Shown here in pieces: positions 26,077-46,334 of a DNA stretch of 64,000 nt; position 1 is the stretch's first letter, and each line of letters starts with the position of its first letter. The stretch covers positions 544,001 through 608,000 of the forward strand of contig CM000429.1 in assembly GCA_000165345.1 (NCBI GenBank). Reading direction: 5' to 3'. The notes under the pieces are model-generated. The model was given only the letters and a program-made list of their open reading frames with translations, was not told the origin of the DNA and searched no databases. Made by a program: the position numbers and the translations under genes.

Positions 26077-28338
26077 ATGTCAAATCAACAATATTCTCTT
26101 AATAATAATGTATTTCAAAACTTTCAAAGACAAATTTCTTCTCAAAATCAAAGTTCTTCTGAGCAAATATCATCTCAATCTTCAACTTACACTAATCAAA
26201 TGGTTAACAATAATATTAGTTTAATGAAAACGTTTGTGCCTCATACTCAAAATGGTGTTGAAAATGATGGTAGTATTACACAAGTTATTAAATACTTAAG
26301 AAAAAATGGGTATATTGAGACAATTGATACTTTGCTATTTGAAATGAATGAAAATGATAGAAAATTAAAAATTAATTCTCTTGAGAACGAGATGACTGAT
26401 TCTGAAGTTGAAAATTTAATTAATTTTACTAGGAAAATAGATAATATTGACACTCAAGTGATTTCGGATAAATATTCCAAGTTCAGAAATTGGATTCTGA
26501 ATTCGCTATCTTCTGTTCGAGAAGAACTCATTTCTGTTTGTTTTATTGTTTTTGTTAATATCTGCTATATCTTATACAAGAACTCATCTATTGAGAGATA
26601 TAGAAACTTCTTAAATAAGTTTTCAGATGATTTTTCGCTATCTAAATATAGAGAAGCTGTCACATTATTAAGAAATTCAAGTGATTTGGGTTATTTAAAA
26701 AATGCAGAATTGTTGAAACCATTTTTTGGATCGAAATTTCATATCATCCTAAACCGAACATCTATTTCATTATTGAATAACTTCTTATTGTCCCATTGTG
26801 ATACTCTAATTTTAGGAATTATGCAAGAGAAATTGGTTATTCATGCTTTTGATCACAAGACAAATAATAATGACGTTACGCTTACCAGCAGAAATGAAGA
26901 ATTGGGTTGTTTGAAGGAAGTTGGGAATTTTCAGATTGGCGAGCTTTATTCTGAAGACTCCTTATTCATTGAATTTAACTCAAAAAATAACCAAAAAAAC
27001 AATACTTATGGCGACATATCTGTAGTTGCAAAAGATGCATCAAAAGTACTTGAAACTGATATGTCAGGTAAAGGCTATTCCCAAAGTAATTCTATTATCA
27101 ACTGGGGGCTTCATCCTGAGAATTACAGTGGAATAATTTCCAAAGAAAATGAAATGAAAAAATCCAAATTTAATCGATTTGATGACGAAATTACAGAAGA
27201 AATTAAAAACGTTGAAATAGAATTCAATCCCATTAACGATTCAAACAACTCTTTTACGTTTAAATATAAAAAACATTTATATGAAGAAGTATCAAATCGA
27301 AAATTTGTTGATTCTACCCATCTTCCCTCTATAATTTGTAGCAGTTTGGAATGCTCAAATTGTAATGAAATAATTGACATGAATATTTCACATAACCATG
27401 AAGTTGGCGCATATTGTACCGATGATGGCTGTATACAAGTTTTTGATATAGAAAATCCGGAATCAAAGATTGAACCTATATGGATCCATAGAAATAGAGT
27501 ACAGTGTGTAAGGTTTCACCCATGGAATCCGGAGTTTTTATTATCTGCTGGAATCGACAGTATTATTAAACTTTCAATTATTACCAAAGATCAAGAACCC
27601 ACTTTATATCAACTAGTTACATTCTCTGGACATTCAACAAATTCTTGTATTTGGGATCTCAGCTGGGATGATCACGGGATTTCCTTTATTAGTGGCTCAA
27701 GCGACCAAAGTGCAAGATTATGGTGTACATCAAGGACTTATCCAATTCGTATATTTACAGGTCACTTTGGAGATGTTAGATCGGTGTCAATACATCCAAA
27801 CTCTTCTATTACTGTAACTGGTGGCAGCGATAATCAAATTATTATTTGGGATGTACGTACAGGAAAGAAGGAAGGCACAATTCATAACAGAAAAGTTATG
27901 TCAGGAATTATTAATCAGGTCAAATTCAGCCATAATGGATATTTGTTAGCTTCCTCTTCAATTAATAATCAAGCTACTCGCTTTTATTCTCAAAACCAGC
28001 TTATAGTACCAATTTGGGATATTCGTAAATTGTGCAATTCTAATAGAGCTACTGAATTTTATCAGCTTTGTCAATTCCCAAATGATACAATAGATTCAAA
28101 AAAACAAACGTTTGTTAAATCGCTTGATTTTTCATTTGGGAGCCGTGTCATTGCATCTGCAACTAATAGTGGTATAGTTTCTATCTGGGATACAAACGTA
28201 GAGACAAGTTTTAATCAAACGGACAATCCAAACTTAGTTAACAATTCTGCGCAGATTTATAAATTAAAGAACTCAAGTATAAAAAGCCTCAAATTCCTAT
28301 CTAGAAATTTACTATCAATATCGTCTGTAAAGTTATAG
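26077..28338 (+). CDS. TFIID subunit TAF5-like (LisH + NTD2 + WD40)
   Basis: 753 aa. It has a LisH-like SITQVIKYLRKNGYIETIDTLL. The NTD2-like block GSKFHIILNRTSISLLNNFLLSHCDTLILGIMQEKLVIHAFD matches TAF5 TSKFVLRISRDSYQLLKRHLQE...IVQEHLYIDIFD. C-terminal WD40 repeats follow. Confidence 0.65.
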   Translation: MSNQQYSLNNNVFQNFQRQISSQNQSSSEQISSQSSTYTNQMVNNNISLMKTFVPHTQNGVENDGSITQVIKYLRKNGYIETIDTLLFEMNENDRKLKINSLENEMTDSEVENLINFTRKIDNIDTQVISDKYSKFRNWILNSLSSVREELISVCFIVFVNICYILYKNSSIERYRNFLNKFSDDFSLSKYREAVTLLRNSSDLGYLKNAELLKPFFGSKFHIILNRTSISLLNNFLLSHCDTLILGIMQEKLVIHAFDHKTNNNDVTLTSRNEELGCLKEVGNFQIGELYSEDSLFIEFNSKNNQKNNTYGDISVVAKDASKVLETDMSGKGYSQSNSIINWGLHPENYSGIISKENEMKKSKFNRFDDEITEEIKNVEIEFNPINDSNNSFTFKYKKHLYEEVSNRKFVDSTHLPSIICSSLECSNCNEIIDMNISHNHEVGAYCTDDGCIQVFDIENPESKIEPIWIHRNRVQCVRFHPWNPEFLLSAGIDSIIKLSIITKDQEPTLYQLVTFSGHSTNSCIWDLSWDDHGISFISGSSDQSARLWCTSRTYPIRIFTGHFGDVRSVSIHPNSSITVTGGSDNQIIIWDVRTGKKEGTIHNRKVMSGIINQVKFSHNGYLLASSSINNQATRFYSQNQLIVPIWDIRKLCNSNRATEFYQLCQFPNDTIDSKKQTFVKSLDFSFGSRVIASATNSGIVSIWDTNVETSFNQTDNPNLVNNSAQIYKLKNSSIKSLKFLSRNLLSISSVKL

Positions 28339-28515
28339 AATCTTCACATAAATATTTATTTTCCTTTTTCCATTTTTATTTTCTCCGCATGAATTGATTT
28401 TTGACCTAATCAGACATTCTGCCGCAATAGAAATATATTATTGCAAAGAATGAAAATAAAATGACTATTATGATTATGCAAATCTTTTCAACGACTAAAA
28501 GTTAATTTTTTAATC

Positions 28516-31500
28516 ATGAAAATTTCTCTTTCCGGTTATAAAGTAATTAATTTGTTTGATCTTGAGCTTGATCGCTTGACAATAATCTCAAAAAATAAAT
28601 CGTTTCGAATATCGATTAAAAAGTTAAAAATATCTGTTTTCAATTGGTTTACATTTATCATTTTTGTTATTTATATTCTTTTAATAGGCTGCAGACATAT
28701 TGATTTATTTTTCAATTTTTTTTCCAAATTTACTGAGAAGAAAATTGCAAGTTTAAAACTAGATCAAGTAGAAATATATCATTTAAAGAAAGATGGATCT
28801 AGCGTACCAAATGTCAAAAGGTCAAATCTTATTAATTTTGTTTCTTCATATTTTGATTTTGAGCTTTTCAGTGTTTGTCTATTATCAGAATATAAACTAT
28901 TAGGAAAAACATTTTTATTTGGAACTAATATTGGATCTATTTACAAGAAAAATTATTCATTCAGGAAAACTAACATTTTTATACGAAGGATTTCTGTCAG
29001 ATTTAATGAATATTTTGATGATATTTCTACTTACGATATAATTGATTTAATTGGATTGAAAGCATATTTTTTCTCAATTTTAAAAGATCAAGAAACGATC
29101 CTAGCTTTTCCGGGTCTTTTAAACATTGATATGGTAAATTCAAATTATGAATCATTTATCACAATAATTGAGGATAATATTGAAAAGGTATACTCAGGTA
29201 TTTATTTATCAATCCCATTATTAAATTATGTCTTTTTCAACATTAAGTCGTTATTCATAAATAAAAATGGAAGTAGTTTAATTCATAACGTGTTTAATTG
29301 GAAGCTCAAGATTTTGATTAATTTTAAAAGAATATTTTTGGAGACATATGAAAGTAATAAATTATTTCTAACAATTAGTTCTATTGTATTCACTTTAGAA
29401 TATAATATGCACAACTTCTCGCTAGTAATTAAACTTTTGAATTGCTACTTATTAATCAACTTGGAAAACTCTATTCAAATTCTGGAATCTATAATTTATT
29501 TTGATGTTAAAGATAAAATAATAAGAGCGAATATGAAATATTTAAGATTATACTCAAAAGCGATACACTCTAATAGTCTCGACAACTTCATTGATGTAAT
29601 AGAGATTCCAGAAATGAATATATTTTCAACTAAGATCGAGCATTGTCCAGAAAACCTTTCGATTGTATTTTTTACTTGTATTGAATTAAATAGTGAGCTG
29701 CTGATCATTAAATTGACGGGCCTGGATGAAATCTTTTGCCAAAATGTTGAATTTAAAAATGAGATCTCAGATTTGCTTGAATTCTCAAATCAATATTTAT
29801 CAGTATCAGATAACGAAGAGAGTGTTTATACAATTTTCTATACTCTAGAGAGAATTGAAAATAAAAACTTGAATATTCAGATAAACTTTAATTTTAATTC
29901 AAATATTCAACTAATCTATAATATGAATAATATAGAACTAAACATTGAAAGAAGTCAAGCTAATTTAACATTCAACTCAAATGAGAAGTTTCTGAAGATT
30001 ACAGATTTTGAATTAGCCCAGTATAATTATTTATATGAAAATGTGTTTTCAATGAAAATAAAAACCATTTTGCTTAACTTTAAAACTAGTAACAAAAGTA
30101 TATTTTTGCAAGAAATAGTTTTTGAAAAAGAAAGTACAATATGCATTTTCTTAAAAGATATTTCAATATTTACAATAGAAAATTCATGCAATTTGAGTGC
30201 AAAAAATATAAAAATTTATTTATATTTAAATACTTCATTAAATTATAACTCAATATTTACTGTATTTGAAATTGAATACGTCAACTTTATTTTCCAAAAA
30301 ACGATTTATTGCTGGAAATCTATAGAAATATACAAGATAATTATTAAACAATGTTTTTCAAAAGATGAGCCATTATTTTACGAGCTAATAAGAATTGATG
30401 AAGATCCAGTTAAAATTCGTAATGAAAACTTGAGTAACAAATATCTAACAATTTGCATTCCAAAACTGTTATTAGCGGCAAGTAATTATCAGATAATGAA
30501 GCTGAGCAATTTGTTTTCAAATTTTAAGCAAAATTCACTCGTCAAAACTAGGATTAGTCAATTAAATTTGATTATAACATTAAATAATGCAAGTATACAT
30601 TATTACTTTCACACTGAAAATAAATGCACAACATTATTAGCTTATTTTGAGAATGGTAAAATCTTTTTATCAATTAATGATAAGTATGAAATTGACATCA
30701 GCTCAAAATTTAATCGAGTTGAAATAATGGCTGGTGAAGTTCATATTGGTAATGATAAAATAATTAAATTCCCACATTACAGTGAAACTTTGTATTCAAA
30801 ACTTCATAATAGAGACATATATTGCGATATTGTTTATTATGAAATTACGAAAAAGATCAAGACTAATCTACTAATTGATGAAGGCAAAATACAGAATTCT
30901 GGTTTTAAAGACAAAATTTTTCCAATTTTTATTAGTAGTATCGACATTTCTCATAACTTTCATATAAAGTTACGCAAAAATACAAAAATAAGAGTTCATT
31001 ACAACTTTAGTAAAGATTCTTTTCTTGTAAACTCAAATTTGGTCAATAATACGATGCTTATTTTAATAGATGTACATGATTATGTGAATTCCAATGAATT
31101 ATTTTATTCTATCAGCTCTGAAGATAATAAATACAAGCTTTCAACATTTTTGGAAAAGATAAATGATATTTGTTTGTTTGAAATTAGACTTCAATGCCTA
31201 AATATGTTATTAATAAAAGCCCAGCTCGAATCGAAATATTTAATTCTTAATTTGAATGGCATTTTGTTTTCTAACCTTAATTCTTTTGAATTATGTATTG
31301 AAAAGTTTAAGATATTTGTCAAATATCCCAGCAACAATTTCAGCGGAGAATATATAAATTTAATAATAAATAACAATCTAATTAAGGCAAATCTCAAGAT
31401 CCTAGATTCCAAAATGTTTTTTTTTGCTGAAAAACTTATTTTTAATTTAAAATTTCTAATTAGAGAATTCGAATGCAAAATTGAAGCAGTTCAACTCAAA

Positions 31501-34500
31501 GTTTCAAAAAATTTGATAGATGTGGTAGTAGGTATTGCGTTTGACTCGGAATTTAGCCATAAAGAAAATGAATTGTATTCAATTAAGTATTATCGGGGAA
31601 CAAACTCATTTCATTATTTATTCGATTTGAGGCAGTCTCAAGCATTTGTAAATAATCTAATGCTTTTATCAAATGAAGATGTATCAGTTGTTCCTTATTT
31701 TCATATTAACTGTTTAAGTAACGCAAAATTTAATATAAAAAATATTGAAGTACCACTATTTTATAACTCAGAATATTTGCTCGATTTAAATAACTCATTT
31801 TTTGACAAAATATATTCAAGTTATAATGAGCCTTTTTATTCTCGTTATTTCAATGATAACATTTATTCCATCAATTGTAGAATAGATTTAAATGTTTTTA
31901 ACTTGGATAATATCAGCAGCGAAATTCCATACTCCAAATTATGTGATTTTTCGGCAAGCAATGCCACTGTTGGATTAAAAATTTGCTTTTCCTCAAAAGT
32001 GTTCAAAGATTTGATTTTATTTTTTGGCACTAAAGTTCCAACTTGTTCTGATATATTTGAGAGAGCTATCAAAATAAGGAAAAATCAAAAAATTGAGATT
32101 CCATTTGATTTTATTGCTGATTTCCCAAACATGATGGTTTTCAAAGATACAAATTCCATAAATATAATGGAATTTGATTCGGTATTCTCTCAAAATAACT
32201 CAGTAAGTATTATTGACATAATAAAAAATTTGATAGAAAACCCTAAAGCATTTTATTTAGATTACAATTTAATTAATTCCAGTCTTTGTATTGGATTTGA
32301 GTGTATTAATTATCGTGGATCTTGCATTAATATAAATATTTTCAATATTATTAGCGTAATTAATATTTCAGGAGAGTCTCTGAGTTTTAGTTTTTGTAAT
32401 CCATATAACAACAAGCTAGAATACGAATGTATTGTGGAAAATTTGAATCAAGAATTTATTGACAACGTTGACACTAAAATAGATTCAGTTCTGTTAATTA
32501 ATGATCCAATGAAAATAACTCATCGATTTTATATCGAATTTAATAGAGTATCTCGAGCTGAAAATCATTGTTCAATTAAAGAAAATATCATCGAATTAAA
32601 TGAAACAAGATCTCAAACAAATAGTAAGAATTACAGATTATCACTGATTAAAGACAAAATTAGCTTTATTATTATTATTTGGTGCCCATTAATAATAATA
32701 AATTACTCAAACCTTGATTGCATTTTAAAGATTATTAATACAGAAAACCAAGAATACTATTTTCTGGAAGGAAAAATATCTAAAAGCAATTCATGGAATT
32801 CAATAAAAAAAAGAAATTTAAGTAATAAAAGCATTTTTTCACTTTCCAACATTGATCAAAAAGATTTTATTGAGTTAGAAATACAGTCGGGATGTTATGT
32901 TAGTACATTCTCACCATCAAGACAAAGAGAAAACGATATTTTAATAGAAGTAGAAGATTATAAGTATTTATTAAAAAGTAATTTTATTTTAAGTATACTA
33001 GAAAGACATTCAATTAAAATAAAGGTTGTAAAGCTAATGCCGATATGGTCCATTAGAAACAAATCTAACTTCAACATTAGAATTACATATGGAAAGCATG
33101 TTAATATCCCTATTAAATCAAACTCTGGATATCTAGATAATACTTATTTAGTTCGTAATACACATTTTAATTATGACATACAAGAACAAATAAAGATAGT
33201 TTTTGATGAATTTGTTAATTTCTTTTTAATAAACCTAACAAAACATGAACCTTATGAAAGGCTAATTAATTTATATCGTAATGATAAAAATCCAAATAAG
33301 GAATGGAAATTAATTAAAATATCTTTTTACCCAATACAAAACGGCTCTGTTACAAAATTTAATACTGGAATTTATATAGAACTTAATGATTTTAACGAGA
33401 ACGAATCATCTAATTATTTTGTTTTCGAAAATAAGACAAGTTTTACGTATTTGCTGACACAAGCAAATGGCCTACTAGACTTTAATAGCATAGACATAAA
33501 TATTCATAGAAAAGAAAACTTAACACAAAAAATTTGGGAAAACACTTTAATTGAGAAGCTTTCAAAAGTTTCTTTATACGATAATAAAATATTTAATAGT
33601 AAATTTTCAATTTGTTTAGTTCCAGAACAGATTAATAATCAGCTCTTTTTTTGGGCAAAAGAGAGTATTCAAGATAATAGTCCAATTACTGTTAGTTTTT
33701 ATGATGAAACAAATAACTTAAAGGTTACATTAGAACAAATTCCTGCATATTTGTTCATTAATGGAGGAACAAAGCTAATTAGATTCAGTAATTATGATTC
33801 TAATGGAAAAAATAATATATACCAATTTTTATTAAGTATATTTAAGTTTGGGAATGAAGTTACACATATAGTTTTCCATACATCTTCATTTATTCAAACA
33901 CATTATACAATTATTCCTTCATTTTTTATTCAAAGACAAATTGAATACCAATTGGTAGCTAGAGAAGAAATTGCAAACAATTATTTTTTAAATATAAGAA
34001 AATTTGAGTTAATTTTATTTAATGACATTGATTCAGATAAAGTATTAAAAGTAAAATGGACTTCAACTCCAACCAATTCGCCTAAAGAATCTCAGAAAAA
34101 TTTGTCTCTTTTTCCATCACCAAGAAAAAATGAATTGATCGACTTTTCCCCAGTTTTTCATATCCTTTTTGAACGTCTTTCAGTAAATATTCAGGAAGGA
34201 GCAAAGAAACTTGAGTTATTCGACTCAGCATATAAGATTTATTCAAATTTAAATAAAGTTTGCTGTAAAATTTCAAATTATGAGTCCACAATATTCGAGG
34301 TAAATAATCATAGAAGTGAAATAAATCAAAACCAAGTTACAATAATTTTTGATTGCTTTAAATTTAAAAAACGAGTGAATAATAAACCAAAATTTTCTGA
34401 GAAATACCAAATAAAGGATTTAATGATTCAAATACCATTTATGGATTTTAATCTAAACTTGAATATTTACTTCCGTAATTTTTTACATAATTTTGTTACT

Positions 34501-41675: not shown

Positions 41676-41791
41676 GTATTTAGCGCTAAAGTATATTTTA
41701 GTTTAAATTTTCTCTAAAGTGAAGTTGAAAATTTAATATTTCATTATTTAGCTCAAGCTTGCACTGTGCATTTATCTTGTCCGAATTTAAT

Positions 41792-42271
41792 ATGCCTCAA
41801 GAGACAGCTCTAATTTATCGCCCTTTGAAACTATCTGACATTTTCAAGATTAACAAAGTTAACTTGGACAGTTTTACAGAGACATACAACATGAATTATT
41901 ATGGAGATTATCTTTCAACCTGGCCTGAACTTTGTTTTGTATGCGAAGCACCAGACCATTCAATAGCGGGCTATCTTGTTTCCAAAGTTGAAGGAGAGGG
42001 CGATCAATGGCATGGCCATGTAACTGCCCTTTCTGTTTCTCAACAATATAGAAATTCGGGTGTTGCAACTAAACTTATGAAATTCTTAGAAGACATAAGC
42101 ACACAGTTGAATTGTCATTTTATTGACTTGTTTGTGAGGCCTTCTAATGAGAAAGCAGTCAAATTTTACAAGCAACTCGGATACTATGTACACCAAACAA
42201 TTCCCTCATATTATACTGATGAAGATGGGTATGACATGAGAAAACTGATTTGCAATAAAAATCTGGAGTAA
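41792..42271 (+). CDS. N-terminal acetyltransferase NatB catalytic subunit (Naa20/NAT5)
   Basis: The ORF track starts at TTG 41759. The first ATG, about 41792, gives MPQETALIYRPLKLSDIFKINKVNLDSFTETY...WHGHVTALSVSQQYRNSGVATKLM...DLFVRPSNEKAVKFYKQLGY. This is co-linear with Naa20. Confidence 0.85.
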   Translation: MPQETALIYRPLKLSDIFKINKVNLDSFTETYNMNYYGDYLSTWPELCFVCEAPDHSIAGYLVSKVEGEGDQWHGHVTALSVSQQYRNSGVATKLMKFLEDISTQLNCHFIDLFVRPSNEKAVKFYKQLGYYVHQTIPSYYTDEDGYDMRKLICNKNLE

Positions 42272-42484
42272 AAGATTGCGATAATAGTGCAAAGAAATGA
42301 CATTAAAGCACACCTTTGATTTAATGAATAAGAAATGTCATTTTATGGCCTAACAGTTTCACTATAAACAAGTCCTCTTTTGATAAACATATTTTTAATG
42401 GTGTGAATCCAAGACATGACGCATGCATTTCATATAGAATAGGCAATTATTTGCAGAAATTGGAAATTAATGAATAATTAGAAA

Positions 42485-43099
42485 ATGGAATCATCAAGTA
42501 TATATGAGATAATTGACAAATTGGAGTAAGTGAGGAAATTGGTTAATTACTTTATTATAATAACTTTACCAGAAACAATGACACGTATTGGGGTTATGAT
42601 GATTTATTTGAGAACTCAGAAGTTCCCACTCCCGAAAGAATTACAAACAAATCAAAACTTTGTGCAATAAATTATTTAGATCCAGAAAAGAATTCCGTAA
42701 GTTCGATAACAAGTGGAGTTTGGACATAAGTAACCTTTGTTGTAGAAAATTGTAGCAAAATCCTCAGTTTTGTTTCGAAAAATTCAAGCAAATGAAAAAA
42801 GAATAAATAGTATGTTAGAGAGTATTGGAACAGATATTAAACATTTCCATATGCTTGCAAAGCAAAGGCAGTTCACAAATAAACCACAAGGTAGGAAGCA
42901 ATTATTTTATACCCCTGAAAAACAATATTCTACTCCTGATTTGTGGCTCACAAAGTCGAACAGTATTTATAATTCGTATTCTTCAAATGCCAAAGAGATT
43001 GTTGAGAATACTTTGGATTACTACCCTAATATAGGTCGTGAATGGTATATTAAGCGATGGAATGATATAAAGTCGATAAAGTTCCAAAAAGGAAATTAA
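42485..43099 (+). CDS. Hypothetical 3-exon gene (about 173 aa) not represented as such in the ORF track
   Basis: Exons are about 42485..42525 (MESSSIYEIIDKL, ending GA|GTAAGT), 42573..42696 (ending TCC|GTAAGT) and 42746..43099. The introns are 47 and 49 nt, with acceptors TTTACCAG and TGTTGTAG. Exon 3 enters the frame of ORF 42770..43099, whose start is TTG, upstream of that TTG. I recognised no homolog. Confidence 0.4.
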
Positions 43100-43154
43100 G
43101 GTATTTTAAAGCTATTAAGTAGTCTGTTAGTATTTGATCAATTTTATTAAACTA

Positions 43155-44666
43155 CTATTGGCTTTGCCTGTGTTTTTTCATTATTTGGGAAAAAGCATCC
43201 AAATATTCCTGCTTTAGTGCGCTATTTGAATTTTCGTTTGTAATTGCATCCCATAGATAACAGGCTTGATTTGCCACATCACCTATCATATGATAAACTT
43301 GAGAGCATCTGTAGTACCCTTTGCTCCATTTGGGATTTATGTAAATACATGATGTAGCATCAAATAAAGCCTTAGAAGAGTCTCCTATCTTTATGTAAGA
43401 AAGAGACCTATTAGAAAGTATACTTGATTTGAGAGTGATTGCACCTTCAGATAAGTTGTTCTTTTTCATCATTAAATGGCTGAGAGCATTTGAATACATT
43501 TCGATTGATTTTTCAAATTGGCCTTCTTTAAAAAATGAATTTGCCTCTGCTTTAAGCCGTTCAGCCTCGACTTCATTGTAATTACTTATATCTTCTAGAT
43601 CCTGTTCAATAATTACTTCAGGAGATATATCGGGCTCAGAAGATTTTTTTTCGTCGTTTAATGAAGAATATTCACTCGATTCAATCGATTCTATGGATTC
43701 AATTTGTGTAGATTGTCCTTGTTCAATTTGCTGAATATTATCAATTTTTATACTATCTAATGCATGACTTTTCAAAATTTCCATGATTTCCTCAGAACAA
43801 CGATTGTTTATTGCATATGAATAAATAGAATTCCCTTTAACAATTTGGTTTGAAGCATCGCATAACTGCAACTTCATGTATTTAATGATTAGTGATAATA
43901 ACTCAACATCATTCTTTTCAACTGCAGCAAAGATTGGTGTATACCCTTCTGAATCCATAGCTTCGGCCAAAAGTGCTCCAGATTTCAAAAGTAATTCGGT
44001 AAGTTCAGTGTTCCCAATTCCAATAGTTATCATAAGAGGAGAAGGAATTAATTTACCTAATGGGGCTTTATTTGGGTTACTCTTATTATTTAAAAGGTAA
44101 CTAATCAACTCTTTATTGTTAGTCATGCAAGCCCATTGAAGAGGAGTTCCAAATTCATCACTACATGTGTTGACAAATAAGTCTATTTCAGATGGGTTTT
44201 CACTTTTTAGGCTGGAAATAATCAGTTTCACCAGGTTGAGGTCTGCAACTTGACATGCATAATGTAACACGTTGCAACCACTTGAATTTTTTCTTGTAAT
44301 TTCGACCCCACTTTTTAACAATGTAGTGACTGATTCAATATCCTGAGCTCTTACTGAAAGAAAAAGTGGGTTTTCATTACTGTTGTCAAGACTATTAACT
44401 ATTCCTGGAGCAAGCTTTATAATAGCCTTTAATGTGTCATTTCTTTTTGCAGAGCAGACAAAATGGCAAACATTTCTTCCATTTCCATCTTTGTACCCCA
44501 ACAAATGCTCTTCAATATCCATTTTTTCTTTAGAGCTCCCGACTAGAGCCACAATATATTTGATTGCCTCTACTGTCGTTCCATTCGTAACGGTACTAAA
44601 TAGACGTGTAATGTCACCATATGCATCTCCTAAATTAGAATCCTCTTTCGATTTAACGCAACTCAT
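43155..44666 (-). CDS. Ankyrin-repeat + TPR-repeat protein
   Basis: 503 aa. The N-terminal half has about five ANK repeats (e.g. GCNVLHYACQVADLNLVKLIIS). The C-terminal 130 aa has TPR-like repeats (AERLKAEANSFFKEGQFEKSIEMYSNAL...WSKGYYRCSQVY). Confidence 0.6.
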   Translation of the reverse strand: MSCVKSKEDSNLGDAYGDITRLFSTVTNGTTVEAIKYIVALVGSSKEKMDIEEHLLGYKDGNGRNVCHFVCSAKRNDTLKAIIKLAPGIVNSLDNSNENPLFLSVRAQDIESVTTLLKSGVEITRKNSSGCNVLHYACQVADLNLVKLIISSLKSENPSEIDLFVNTCSDEFGTPLQWACMTNNKELISYLLNNKSNPNKAPLGKLIPSPLMITIGIGNTELTELLLKSGALLAEAMDSEGYTPIFAAVEKNDVELLSLIIKYMKLQLCDASNQIVKGNSIYSYAINNRCSEEIMEILKSHALDSIKIDNIQQIEQGQSTQIESIESIESSEYSSLNDEKKSSEPDISPEVIIEQDLEDISNYNEVEAERLKAEANSFFKEGQFEKSIEMYSNALSHLMMKKNNLSEGAITLKSSILSNRSLSYIKIGDSSKALFDATSCIYINPKWSKGYYRCSQVYHMIGDVANQACYLWDAITNENSNSALKQEYLDAFSQIMKKHRQSQ

Positions 44667-44937: not shown

Positions 44938-45860
44938 ATGACTCGACCTGAAACTCAGGCTCCACCAGAGTTGGTAAGTTTAGTTGCGGATTGCATTTAG
45001 AAGCTAATTAACGGAACAACTTTTCGTAGTATTATAATGAATCAGAGGCTATAAAGTATTCAAAGAGCAGCCGAATTATTGATATTCAAACTAAGTTAAC
45101 AGAGAGAGCAATTGAACTACTTTTATTACCTCAACACCCCTGTTTGATATTGGATATTGGGTGCGGAACTGGAATAAGTGGCTCAGTTTTAGAAGATCAC
45201 AACCACGTTTGGGTTGGAATAGATATTAGCGTAGGCATGTTAAATGTACTGGATATATACGATGATGACTCAGAGTCAACCGGTGATGCTTTACTTGCTG
45301 ATATGGGAGAACTTTTACGGTTCAGACCTGGCGTTTTTGATGGAGCAATAAGTATATCTGTTTTACAATGGCTTTGTAATGCTGATAGAAAATCACATGA
45401 TCCTTATAAGAGGCTTTTAGTTTTCTTTAAATGGCTTTTCAACTCATTAAATAGAGGTTCAAGAGCAGTGTTCCAGTTTTACCCGGATTCCCCTTCTCAA
45501 GTGGAAATGATTACTTCAGCTGCTTTAAAGTCTGGCTTTGGAGGGGGATTAGTGGTTGATTTTCCAAATTCTTCAAAAGCAAAAAAATACTATCTTTGTT
45601 TATGGGCAGGGTTCTATTCTACAATACCTCAAACCCTCCCGCAAGGACTAACAGACGAAAATGATGAAGAAATGACTTCAGCAAGTAATTTGGGAAGATC
45701 AGGATGCAAGTTAAAGACAAAGAAAAGGGGCAACAAAAGAGAGCATAGAGTAAAGTCAAGGGAGTGGATTTTGGAAAAGAAGAATGTTCAGAGACTTAAG
45801 GGCTTTGAAGTCCGTCCAGATTCCAAATATACAGGAAGAAAAAGAAAGAGCGGGTTTTAA
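44938..45860 (+). CDS. Bud23/WBSCR22-type 18S rRNA (guanine-N7) methyltransferase, 2 exons
   Basis: The ORF track starts at TTG 45144, inside the SAM motif LDIGCG. The frame is open back to a CGTAG acceptor at about 45029. Exon 1 is about 44938..44973, [18 protein letters not shown], with a 56-nt intron. The spliced N-terminus [43 protein letters not shown] matches Bud23 [43 protein letters not shown]. The C-terminal KRKSGF is also shared. Confidence 0.85.
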
Positions 45861-45980: not shown

Positions 45981-46334
45981 CTATTCTGCCATTTCCTCAT
46001 CTTTTTGAATCTCAGTTTTAGTTTCTTTAGATTCTTCAGCTCTACTTATATACAATACGTTGTTGCACCTAATAAATACTTTACCCAACGTTCCTTTCTT
46101 GGTATTGTCTATCCACTCTTCACAGTCATTTAAAAGAATGTTCATATATTCATCAAAGGAAACAAGGGTGCCTTTGTATCTCATGTTTCCCCATTTTAAG
46201 CAAACAATCGCAACCTTGTTTATAAGGCTGGAGAGAAATGGTTTGGGATTTACAGCAACAAGCTAAAAAAGGTTAAATTTAATTCGTTATTAAAAACATT
46301 TCGTGGCCAGCTATATTAAACTTACCCCAGACAT
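45981..46334 (-). CDS. Small nuclear ribonucleoprotein SmF (Sm-fold), 2 exons
   Basis: ORF 45981..46184 (minus) carries Sm1/Sm2 ([32 protein letters not shown]) but lacks the N-terminal strand. The frame is open for 26 more codons up to an acceptor TTTTTTAG at about 46263. The 63-nt intron has a GTAAGT donor. Exon 1 is ATG TCT GGG at about 46334..46326. The product [44 protein letters not shown] matches SmF [41 protein letters not shown]. Confidence 0.8.

What the first reader, a model, noticed from the sequence alone, without database searches (positions are those of the whole stretch)
42485..43099. Previously uncalled 3-exon gene upstream of a TTG-start ORF
ORF 42770..43099 starts at TTG, and its frame stays open upstream of that codon. 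A TGTTGTAG acceptor at about 42745 and a TCC|GTAAGT donor at about 42697 (49-nt intron) connect it in phase to an internal exon. A second 47-nt GTAAGT...TTTACCAG intron links that exon to an ATG-initiated 13-codon exon at about 42485. The resulting protein of about 173 aa has no homolog I can name.
Basis: seen in the sequence. Interest (0 to 1): 0.5.

Follow-up and report, generated by a model that had tools for sequence, protein, structure and literature searches.

The report
Known three-exon Cryptosporidium orphan gene
The three-exon gene is real and encodes a strongly conserved 172-residue protein found only in Cryptosporidium, but the identical gene model is already in several public C. 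parvum annotations as a "hypothetical protein", so it is a correct re-discovery.

Summary
The window is Cryptosporidium parvum chromosome 1. Exon 1 is 42485-42525, intron 1 is 47 nt, exon 2 is 42573-42696, intron 2 is 49 nt and exon 3 is 42746-43099. The joined reading frame is 519 nt (172 codons plus stop).

The gene is real. Both introns sit at the same codon positions in seven Cryptosporidium species, while their lengths vary (47-92 and 46-95 nt) and their sequences diverge. dN/dS is 0.02-0.07. Retaining either intron gives an early stop.

It is not new. The identical 172-aa protein is deposited for five C. parvum chromosome assemblies, for example QOY43359.1 (CPATCC_0036650) and WKS76169.1 (CPHLJ_1g2665). 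I found no entry from the 2004 Iowa II annotation and no partner in a 2015 orthologue table.

Function remains unknown. Pfam, NCBIfam, a PDB profile search and a profile search of 1.84 billion proteins found no credible relative outside the genus. A UniRef "Fcf2" name on the C. canis orthologue could not be reproduced. A resemblance to ATG3 is limited to about 18 residues.

The protein has no predicted signal peptide or membrane segment and is basic and partly helical. Within intestinal species it is as conserved as the neighbouring housekeeping enzymes. I infer that it is a non-enzymatic binding subunit.

The parts
42412..42421 (+). Conserved upstream block AGACATGACG, 64-73 nt before the ATG. 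Candidate promoter element or transcription-start footprint.
   Evidence: This is the only alignable block in the 200 nt upstream across 7 species. AGAC[A/G]TGAC is kept in all seven, including C. serpentis. The 9-mer is not enriched elsewhere in the window: 10 matches at up to 1 mismatch against 10.5 expected. Its function is inferred, not shown.
42485..42525 (+). Exon 1: the ATG start plus 13 codons and 2 nt (MESSSIYEIIDKL-E).
   Evidence: An in-frame TAG lies one codon upstream. The exon is 41 nt in all 7 species. Its nucleotide identity to C. parvum is 100% in C. meleagridis and 83-90% in C. canis, C. ryanae and C. bovis, against 51-63% for intron 1 in the last three.
42526..42572 (+). Intron 1: 47 nt, phase 2, GTAAGT...TAAC...TTTACCAG.
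   Evidence: The position is conserved while the length is 47, 47, 47, 51, 70, 74 and 92 nt across the 7 species. Retention gives a stop straight after codon 14.
42573..42696 (+). Exon 2: 124 nt, the acidic and less conserved N-terminal region.
   Evidence: The length is 124, 121 or 118 nt in the other species, always differing by a multiple of 3.
42697..42745 (+). Intron 2: 49 nt, phase 0, GTAAGT...GTAAC...TGTTGTAG.
   Evidence: The length is 49, 49, 49, 46, 46 and 95 nt in six species, and 53 nt in C. canis if the C. parvum-like acceptor is used. Retention gives a stop after 12 extra codons.
42746..43099 (+). Exon 3: 117 codons plus the TAA stop. It holds the basic helical segment and the most conserved core, and it contains the TTG 'ORF' 42770-43099.
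   Evidence: Invariant run G83-W122 and PNIG.EWY in the 7-species alignment. All five exon-3 differences in a second C. parvum lineage are synonymous.
42229..42234 (+). GTATGA inside the upstream N-acetyltransferase ORF. This is the donor used by the fused 304-aa models in older C. hominis and C. meleagridis annotations. Rejected here.
   Evidence: P0008 and P0013 join acetyltransferase residues 1-146 to exon 2 through this donor and the 42572 acceptor, a 344-nt intron. The residues that this splice removes, EDG[YF]DMRK, are conserved in all 7 species.

Best explanation
This is an ordinary spliced protein-coding gene of Cryptosporidium parvum chromosome 1. It lies between the Naa20-type N-acetyltransferase (cgd1_2660) and a convergent ankyrin/TPR gene.

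Shown:
- Two short canonical GT-AG introns (47 nt, phase 2; 49 nt, phase 0) must be removed to join a 41-nt ATG exon, a 124-nt exon and a 354-nt exon into a 519-nt CDS.
- The CDS encodes a 172-aa, 20.3-kDa protein with pI 9.0.
- The exon structure is conserved across the genus and the protein is under strong purifying selection.

Sequence features:
- The protein has an acidic N-terminal third (pI 4.2), a basic middle segment predicted as one long helix (about residues 51-99) and a basic, aromatic-rich C-terminal third.
- It has no hydrophobic segment that could be a signal peptide or membrane span.
- It has no conserved cysteine and no recognisable catalytic motif.

Inferred:
- The protein is a soluble cytosolic or nuclear, non-enzymatic subunit or adaptor. 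I propose that it works by binding partner proteins, or possibly nucleic acid, in a housekeeping process.
- The nearly invariant stretch 83-125 (GTDIKHFH.L.KQRQFT.KPQGRKQLFYTP.K.Y.TPDLWL) and PNIGREWY would form the binding surface.
- Its partner and pathway are unknown.
For: - Gene structure: exact re-derivation. The same model is annotated on 5 C. parvum assemblies.
- Conservation of structure: intron positions are conserved in 7 species, with variable intron lengths that are not multiples of 3 and diverged intron sequences.
- Exons versus introns: exon identity exceeds intron and flank identity, for example 0.83/0.75/0.86 against 0.63/0.62 for C. canis.
- Selection: dN/dS is 0.055, 0.047 and 0.021 against C. 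tyzzeri, C. meleagridis and C. canis. Differences fall mostly at third codon positions, for example 12/7/71. All 6 exonic differences in a second C. parvum lineage are synonymous.
- Synteny: helicase, acetyltransferase and this gene are in the same order in all species.
- RNA evidence: the IOWA-ATCC annotation paper states that its introns are 100% RNA-seq supported (PMC8744675).
- Degree of conservation: identity to C. canis and C. ryanae is about 90% and 76%. The neighbouring DEAH helicase scores 88% and 76%, and the acetyltransferase 84% and 73%.
- Physical properties: pI, hydropathy (maximum 19-residue Kyte-Doolittle mean 0.32) and segment charges.
- No enzyme family: Pfam and NCBIfam give no hits, and the family alignment has no invariant Cys.
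- Structure prediction: a long helix, with low-confidence models of the kind often seen for proteins that fold on binding.
Against: - The functional part is inference from the absence of features. No partner, localisation or expression data for this gene could be retrieved: gene identifiers were absent from searchable texts and no usable supplements were held.
- The low AlphaFold confidence (pLDDT about 50) may simply reflect the 7-8-sequence alignment.
- Identity to the gastric species C. serpentis is only 48%, against 66-67% for the neighbouring enzymes. The 'housekeeping-like' constraint therefore weakens at depth.
- RNA-seq junction reads for this specific gene were not seen directly.
Confidence: 0.9

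Rival explanations
1. The protein is a very divergent, catalytically dead relative of the autophagy E2-like enzymes ATG3/ATG10 (a 'pseudo-E2'). It would modulate ATG8 lipidation in a parasite reported to have ATG3, ATG4, ATG7 and ATG8.
For: - A profile of the conserved part gives one weak PDB hit to human ATG3: 'kqlfytpekqystpdlwltks' against '[21 protein letters not shown]', E = 1.3.
- hhalign against ATG3 alignments gives P = 1.7e-4 (28 columns) and 4.8e-4 (43 columns).
- Against the crystallised ATG3 construct that lacks the flexible region, hhalign gives a colinear 60-column alignment. It places residues 79-104 as an insertion where the construct's 'KQMEE' joins 'DAILQ', P = 6e-4. That this join is the site of ATG3's flexible region comes from memory, not from a tool.
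- The motif alone beats all 150 column shuffles.
- C. parvum is listed as having ATG3/4/7/8 orthologues, and is not among the species listed for ATG5 (PMC3228817 Table S1).
Against: - The hit was found after scanning 177,635 sequences at E about 1, which is what chance gives.
- With the motif removed, neither the N-terminal part (score 12.2 against a null of 9.9 +/- 2.2; 22 of 150 shuffles as good) nor the C-terminal part (67 of 150 and 30 of 120 shuffles as good) resembles ATG3.
- hmmsearch --max with ATG3 profiles gives only 4-11 bits.
- Pfam reported no hit to the ATG3 family PF03987 even at E <= 10, although HMMER's filters drop most matches above about 0.1.
- No cysteine is conserved; by-eye alignment puts 'NIG' where ATG3 has HPC.
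- The protein lacks ATG3's C-terminal helices.
- The models show no strands.
- A canonical ATG3 is already reported for C. parvum.
Confidence: 0.05
2. It is the Cryptosporidium orthologue of Fcf2/DNTTIP2, a small-subunit processome factor, as the UniRef name of the C. canis protein suggests ('Fcf2 pre-rRNA processing C-terminal domain-containing protein').
For: - The UniRef100_A0ABQ8P2M1 name is attached to the C. canis orthologue P0004.
- Size, basic charge and an extended, poorly predicted structure would suit a processome factor.
Against: - Pfam PF08698 (cut-off 27 bits) gives no hit on any orthologue even at E <= 10. The same scan scores a human Fcf2 domain at 138 bits.
- hhalign of the family against a 14-sequence Fcf2 alignment gives probability 0.1%.
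- hmmsearch --max with an Fcf2 profile gives 2.4 bits or less.
- Profile searches of PDB sequences found no matches to the family at E <= 10, and only insecticyanin and ATG3 for its conserved part.
Confidence: 0.02
3. Exons 2-3 are not a separate gene. They would be the 3' end of the upstream N-acetyltransferase, as in the 304-aa fused models of older C. hominis and C. meleagridis annotations. The splice would run from GG|GTATGA at 42229 to the acceptor at 42572.
For: - The fused models are deposited as OLQ18711.1 and PPA62479.1 (C. hominis) and POM82166.1 (C. meleagridis).
- The junction is in phase.
- The 'Acetyltransferase (GNAT) family' name on the 172-aa C. tyzzeri protein probably descends from these models. 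That link is my inference.
Against: - The splice would delete the acetyltransferase C-terminus EDG[YF]DMRK, which is conserved in all 7 species. By my recollection it matches the Naa20 consensus.
- In C. ryanae and C. bovis the Tyr codon that supplies the donor is a Phe codon.
- The 344-nt intron would be far longer than the four introns re-derived at and beside this locus, which are 47-63 nt. The published mean intron length for C. parvum is 84-99 nt (PMC4637869).
- Exon 1 has its own ATG and is conserved at coding-like levels in every species.
- Newer annotations of C. parvum, C. tyzzeri and C. meleagridis separate the two genes.
Confidence: 0.02
4. It is not a functional gene. It would be a chance ORF with chance splice-like signals, or a pseudogene.
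For: There is no homologue outside the genus. The 2004 annotation did not call it.
Against: dN/dS is 0.02-0.07. The frame is intact and the intron positions are conserved in 7 species spanning intestinal and gastric lineages.
Confidence: 0.01

Closest known systems
C. parvum hypothetical protein CPATCC_0036650 (QOY43359.1), the same sequence as CPHLJ_1g2665 (WKS76169.1), KAL3129971.1 and KAL5370509.1; UniProt A0A7S7RHT6
   Same: It is identical in sequence (172 aa) and in genomic span (615 nt, three exons).
   Different: Nothing differs. This is the same gene, and it carries no functional annotation.
Orthologues in other Cryptosporidium species: C. tyzzeri TRY53233.1, C. meleagridis KAK9174461.1 (cmbei_1002663), C. 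ryanae FG386_002946, C. bovis FG379_002706, C. canis OIY81_1355, C. serpentis ACR3K2_00920
   Same: They share the same synteny and the same two intron positions, at 48-99% identity.
   Different: The C. tyzzeri entry is mis-named 'Acetyltransferase (GNAT) family'. The C. canis model (156 aa) uses an in-frame acceptor 42 nt too far downstream and so drops the conserved KIVAKSSVMFRKIQ. C. serpentis has longer introns (92 and 95 nt) and a PIF1 helicase gene inserted downstream.
ATG3 (Pfam PF03987, the active-site domain of the autophagy E2-like enzyme)
   Same: They share a motif of 17-19 residues: LFYTPEKQYSTPDLWL against [16 protein letters not shown]. C. serpentis matches 11 of 17 positions.
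   Different: There is no catalytic Cys or HPC motif. There is no significant similarity outside the motif. The protein is about half the length and lacks ATG3's C-terminal helices.
Fcf2 / DNTTIP2 (Pfam PF08698)
   Same: Only a database name on one orthologue, plus small size and basic charge.
   Different: No sequence similarity is detectable by hmmscan, hmmsearch --max or hhalign.

Membership tests
Spliceosomal short-intron protein-coding gene of Cryptosporidium | GT-AG introns with a GTAAGT-like donor and a Y-rich/YAG acceptor, of a length typical for the genome | tested here: met
   Both introns are GTAAGT...YAG, 47 and 49 nt. Neighbouring genes in the window have GTAAGT...TAG introns of 56 and 63 nt. 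The published mean intron length is 84-99 nt (PMC4637869).
Spliceosomal short-intron protein-coding gene of Cryptosporidium | Joined frame open from ATG to stop; intron positions and reading frame conserved in related species; purifying selection | tested here: met
   The 519-nt ORF is open. Exon 1 is 41 nt in all 7 species and intron positions are conserved. dN/dS is 0.02-0.07.
Spliceosomal short-intron protein-coding gene of Cryptosporidium | Junction-spanning RNA reads | not testable with these tools
   [quoted passage not shown] No transcript-derived contig carrying the uninterrupted ORF was on record.
Fcf2 / DNTTIP2 (PF08698) | Match to the Fcf2 domain profile at or above the Pfam gathering score (27 bits) | tested here: not met
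   No hit at E <= 10 on any orthologue, while the positive control scored 138 bits. hhalign probability is 0.1%. hmmsearch --max gives 2.4 bits or less.
ATG3/ATG10 E2-like enzymes (PF03987) | Catalytic cysteine in an HPC motif | tested here: not met
   There is no invariant Cys in the 7-species alignment. The HPC motif (H65 P66) is invariant in the ATG3 alignment. By-eye alignment puts N-I-G at that position.
ATG3/ATG10 E2-like enzymes (PF03987) | Domain-wide sequence similarity to the E2-like core | tested here: not met
   Only a 17-19-residue motif matches. The N and C parts are indistinguishable from column-shuffled nulls. hmmsearch --max gives 4-11 bits.
ATG3/ATG10 E2-like enzymes (PF03987) | E2-like alpha/beta fold | tested here: inconclusive
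GNAT N-acetyltransferase (the name carried by the C. tyzzeri orthologue and by the fused C. hominis and C. meleagridis models) | Acetyltransferase_1 (PF00583) domain within the protein | tested here: not met
   The 172-aa protein has no Pfam hit. The GNAT domains belong to the separate upstream gene.

The most novel reading that the evidence does not exclude
The protein could be a cysteine-less remnant or derivative of the ATG3/ATG10 E2-like fold. It would keep the conserved beta-hairpin motif (LFYTP[ED]K.Y.TPDLWL) and act as a non-catalytic regulator of ATG8 lipidation. C. parvum is reported to have ATG3/4/7/8 orthologues and is not among the species listed for ATG5 (PMC3228817 Table S1).
Probability: 0.05. 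Interest if true: 0.6.

Novelty: already known. Interest (0 to 1): 0.12.

Why it matters
As a discovery it matters little, because the gene model is already public. It has modest practical value in four respects.
- It independently confirms the three-exon model by comparative genomics across seven species.
- It flags three annotation errors that are propagating through databases. These are the fused 304-aa 'GNAT' models in C. hominis and C. meleagridis, the 'Acetyltransferase' name on the C. tyzzeri protein, and the mis-spliced 156-aa C. canis model with its unsupported 'Fcf2' name.
- It marks a small protein restricted to the genus that, within intestinal species, evolves as slowly as core enzymes. 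That makes it a reasonable candidate for tagging and knockout in a pathogen with few drug targets.
- It shows that bacterial-style ORF lists (the TTG start) mislead in this genome.

Tried and rejected
- **Pfam and NCBIfam scans of five orthologues at E <= 10.** Only noise was returned: DUF2252 at 11 bits and MSP1_beta_N at 14 bits.
- **Profile searches against PDB sequences.** The whole-family profile found nothing. The profile of the conserved part gave two hits at E about 1, insecticyanin and ATG3.
- **Exhaustive profile search of 1.84 billion representative proteins.** It found only Cryptosporidium sequences plus a 5,774-aa repeat protein (P0021). Eighteen copies of 'KKYTTPELHLTLNEPVYPTESS' in that protein add up to a spurious score.
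- **Fcf2 hypothesis.** Rejected.
- **ATG3/ATG10 hypothesis.** I followed it with three hhalign runs, real core sequences of human, Arabidopsis and yeast ATG3 from PDB alignments, and column-shuffle nulls on the N-terminal, motif and C-terminal parts separately. Only the motif survives. My by-eye matches in the N-terminal region were not reproduced against the three-species profile.
- **Rfam at E <= 1 on 41700-43400.** No hits.
- **Literature.** No paper text contains the gene identifiers cgd1_2663, cgd1_2665, CPATCC_0036650, cpbgf_1002663, cpbgf_1002665 or CPHLJ_1g2665. No supplements were held for the IOWA-ATCC annotation paper or the 2026 proteome paper.
- **Conserved upstream 9-mer.** It is not enriched elsewhere in the window.
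- **Look-up of the spliced protein as plain letters.** It succeeded later through the protein id.

Full report
**Where the window comes from**

The window is AT-rich (about 25-40% GC) and carries eukaryotic housekeeping genes. The 503-aa ankyrin/TPR protein encoded on the minus strand at 43155-44666 is found, residue for residue, on an 881-kb NCBI chromosome record (GCA_031892065.1, CP029780.1). The 3.6 kb around the finding is identical to that record. Cluster look-ups name the organism as Cryptosporidium parvum. The upstream neighbour matches 'n-terminal acetyltransferase complex ard1' of C. parvum Iowa II (XP_628091.1). I take that to be cgd1_2660. The region is therefore chromosome 1.

**The observation**

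- The ATG is at 42485, in an AAAATGG context, with an in-frame TAG one codon upstream.
- Exon 1 is 42485-42525 (41 nt).
- Intron 1 is 42526-42572 (47 nt, GTAAGT...TTTACCAG).
- Exon 2 is 42573-42696 (124 nt).
- Intron 2 is 42697-42745 (49 nt, TCC|GTAAGT...TGTTGTAG).
- Exon 3 is 42746-43099.

The joined CDS is 519 nt and translates without a stop into 172 residues. The 'TTG-start ORF' at 42770-43099 is simply the part of exon 3 that a bacterial-style ORF list reports. Retaining either intron introduces an early stop. The two GTAAGT hexamers in this 615-nt locus compare with 0.22 expected on one strand. Two neighbouring genes, a Bud23-type methyltransferase and an LSm protein, have introns of the same style: GTAAGT...TAG, 56 and 63 nt.

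**Is it a real gene?**

Comparative evidence is decisive. I fetched the orthologous loci of C. tyzzeri, C. meleagridis, C. canis, C. ryanae, C. bovis and the gastric species C. serpentis. I then solved their exon structures against the deposited proteins.
- Exon 1 is 41 nt in every species.
- Exon 2 is 124, 121 or 118 nt.
- Both introns sit at the same codon positions.
- Intron 1 is 47-92 nt and intron 2 is 46-95 nt, with diverged sequence.
- Exons are more conserved than introns and flanks.

Nei-Gojobori estimates give dN/dS of 0.055 (C. tyzzeri), 0.047 (C. meleagridis), 0.021 (C. canis) and 0.073 (C. ryanae against C. bovis). Differences are concentrated at third codon positions. In a second C. 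parvum lineage (GCA_045269125.1) the locus differs at seven sites. One is intronic and six are exonic, and all six exonic changes are synonymous. Gene order upstream (DEAH helicase, acetyltransferase, this gene) is the same in all species. The convergent ankyrin/TPR gene lies immediately downstream except in C. serpentis, where a PIF1 helicase gene intervenes.

**Is it new?**

No. A look-up by exact sequence finds the 172-aa protein in NCBI as QOY43359.1 (CPATCC_0036650), WKS76169.1 (CPHLJ_1g2665), KAL3129971.1 and KAL5370509.1, all named 'hypothetical protein'. The gene is called over exactly the same 615-nt span on five chromosome-level C. parvum assemblies. Orthologues are annotated in six other species. 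[quoted passage not shown] That is a general statement and I could not check it for this gene.

No accession from the original 2004 Iowa II annotation carries the protein. The orthologue table of the 2015 re-annotation passes from cgd1_2660 directly to cgd1_2670 (PMC4637869 supplement). 'Previously uncalled' is therefore true only of the early annotations.

**Competing gene models**

Older C. hominis and C. meleagridis annotations contain 304-aa 'GNAT family' proteins. These join acetyltransferase residues 1-146 to exons 2-3, through a GG|GTATGA donor at 42229 and the same acceptor at 42572. I reject that model for four reasons.
- It deletes the acetyltransferase C-terminal motif EDG[YF]DMRK, which is conserved in all seven species.
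- It needs a 344-nt intron.
- It ignores the conserved ATG exon.
- In C. ryanae and C. bovis the codon that supplies the donor is different.

The 'Acetyltransferase (GNAT) family' name on the C. tyzzeri 172-aa protein looks like a leftover of this fusion. The C. canis model (156 aa) uses an in-frame acceptor 42 nt too far downstream. The C. parvum-like acceptor (CTCCAG) is present, and using it restores the conserved KIVAKSSVMFRKIQ to give 170 aa.

**What is the protein?**

Sequence searches found no family.
- Pfam and NCBIfam returned nothing meaningful, even at E <= 10.
- A family profile found nothing among PDB sequences.
- An exhaustive hmmsearch of 1.84 billion representative proteins returned only Cryptosporidium sequences and one repeat protein whose 18 short repeats inflate the score.
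- AlphaFold2 models, full length and residues 56-172, reached only pLDDT of about 50. They show a long helix at about residues 51-99 and short C-terminal helices.

I followed two functional leads.

*Fcf2.* UniRef calls the C. canis orthologue 'Fcf2 pre-rRNA processing C-terminal domain-containing protein'. I built a 14-sequence Fcf2 alignment from a verified Fcf2 domain, which scores 138 bits against PF08698. hhalign gives 0.1% probability and hmmsearch --max gives 2.4 bits or less. The name is not reproducible.

*ATG3.* The conserved-core profile gave a marginal PDB hit (E = 1.3) to human ATG3, over LFYTPEKQYSTPDLWL against [16 protein letters not shown]. hhalign against ATG3 alignments gave P of 2e-4 to 6e-4 with colinear extensions. 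I then split the comparison into an N-terminal part, the motif and a C-terminal part, and compared each with column-shuffled nulls. Only the motif exceeded the null. The other parts were matched or beaten by 22 of 150, 67 of 150 and 30 of 120 shuffles. The family has no conserved cysteine where ATG3 has its catalytic HPC. C. parvum is already reported to possess a canonical ATG3 (PMC3228817 Table S1). I keep this only as a low-probability speculative reading.

**What can be said positively**

The protein is 20.3 kDa with pI 9.0 and is strongly hydrophilic. Its maximum 19-residue hydropathy is 0.32, so a signal peptide or membrane span is unlikely. It has an acidic N-terminal third (pI 4.2), a basic middle segment (pI 10.6) and a basic, aromatic-rich C-terminal third (pI 9.5). 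Residues 83-125 and the PNIG.EWY motif are almost invariant across the genus.

Within intestinal species it is as conserved as the adjacent DEAH-box helicase and the Naa20-type acetyltransferase: about 90% and 76% identity, against 88% and 76%, and 84% and 73%. It is less conserved towards C. serpentis, at 48% against 66-67%.

My best inference is a soluble cytosolic or nuclear, non-enzymatic subunit or adaptor. It would act through a conserved binding surface in a housekeeping process. This step is inferred, not shown.

**Verdict**

The gene is an already annotated orphan restricted to the genus Cryptosporidium. Interest is low. The residual value lies in the annotation corrections and in flagging a slowly evolving parasite-specific protein for experimental follow-up.

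Noticed in passing
window 42412-42421 (context 42403-42427, GTGAATCCAAGACATGACGCATGCA): A block of about 10 nt, AGACATGAC(G), lies 64-73 nt upstream of the ATG in C. parvum. It is conserved in all seven Cryptosporidium species, although the rest of the intergenic spacer cannot be aligned. In C. parvum, C. tyzzeri and C. meleagridis it abuts a GCATGC palindrome. It is a candidate promoter or transcription-start element.
   Followed up: partly
L007 4211-4305 (C. canis, GCA_027243965.1): The deposited C. canis model (KAJ1605864.1, 156 aa) uses an acceptor 42 nt downstream of the conserved one. It thereby drops 14 conserved residues (KIVAKSSVMFRKIQ). Its UniRef name 'Fcf2 ... domain-containing protein' has no detectable sequence basis.
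   Followed up: yes
window 41792-42271 joined to 42573-43099; proteins P0008 and P0013: Older C. hominis (OLQ18711.1, PPA62479.1) and C. meleagridis (POM82166.1) annotations fuse the Naa20-type acetyltransferase to exons 2-3 of this gene (304 aa). The C. tyzzeri 172-aa protein is named 'Acetyltransferase (GNAT) family', probably by propagation from these models.
   Followed up: yes
P0008 residue 243 (window codon 42914-42916): The C. hominis fused model reads LFYIPEK where all seven other species have the invariant LFYTPEK. This is a Thr-to-Ile change inside the most conserved motif. It could be real or a sequencing error.
   Followed up: no
L005 4765-6948 (C. serpentis): A 727-aa PIF1-family helicase gene lies between this gene and the ankyrin/TPR gene in C. 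serpentis. It is absent at that position in the six intestinal species. This is a local synteny difference between gastric and intestinal lineages.
   Followed up: no
window 43100-43154: Only 55 nt separate the stop codons of this gene and the convergent ankyrin/TPR gene. Their 3' UTRs must overlap or be extremely short.
   Followed up: no
window 28001-34000: This stretch has markedly lower GC (about 25%) than the rest of the window (29-40%).
   Followed up: no
window 44974-45029 (+) and 46263-46325 (-): The Bud23/WBSCR22-type methyltransferase and the LSm gene each have one short GTAAGT...TAG intron (56 and 63 nt) very near the 5' end of the CDS. Bacterial-style ORF lists therefore truncate both proteins.
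   Followed up: partly
protein P0021 (5,774 aa, from the representative library): This is a giant repeat protein, apparently from a eukaryote, with a repeat unit of roughly 170 residues. The unit contains 'KKYTTPELHLTLNEPVYPTESS', and its copies produce a spurious cumulative HMMER hit (E = 1e-12) to this family.
   Followed up: partly
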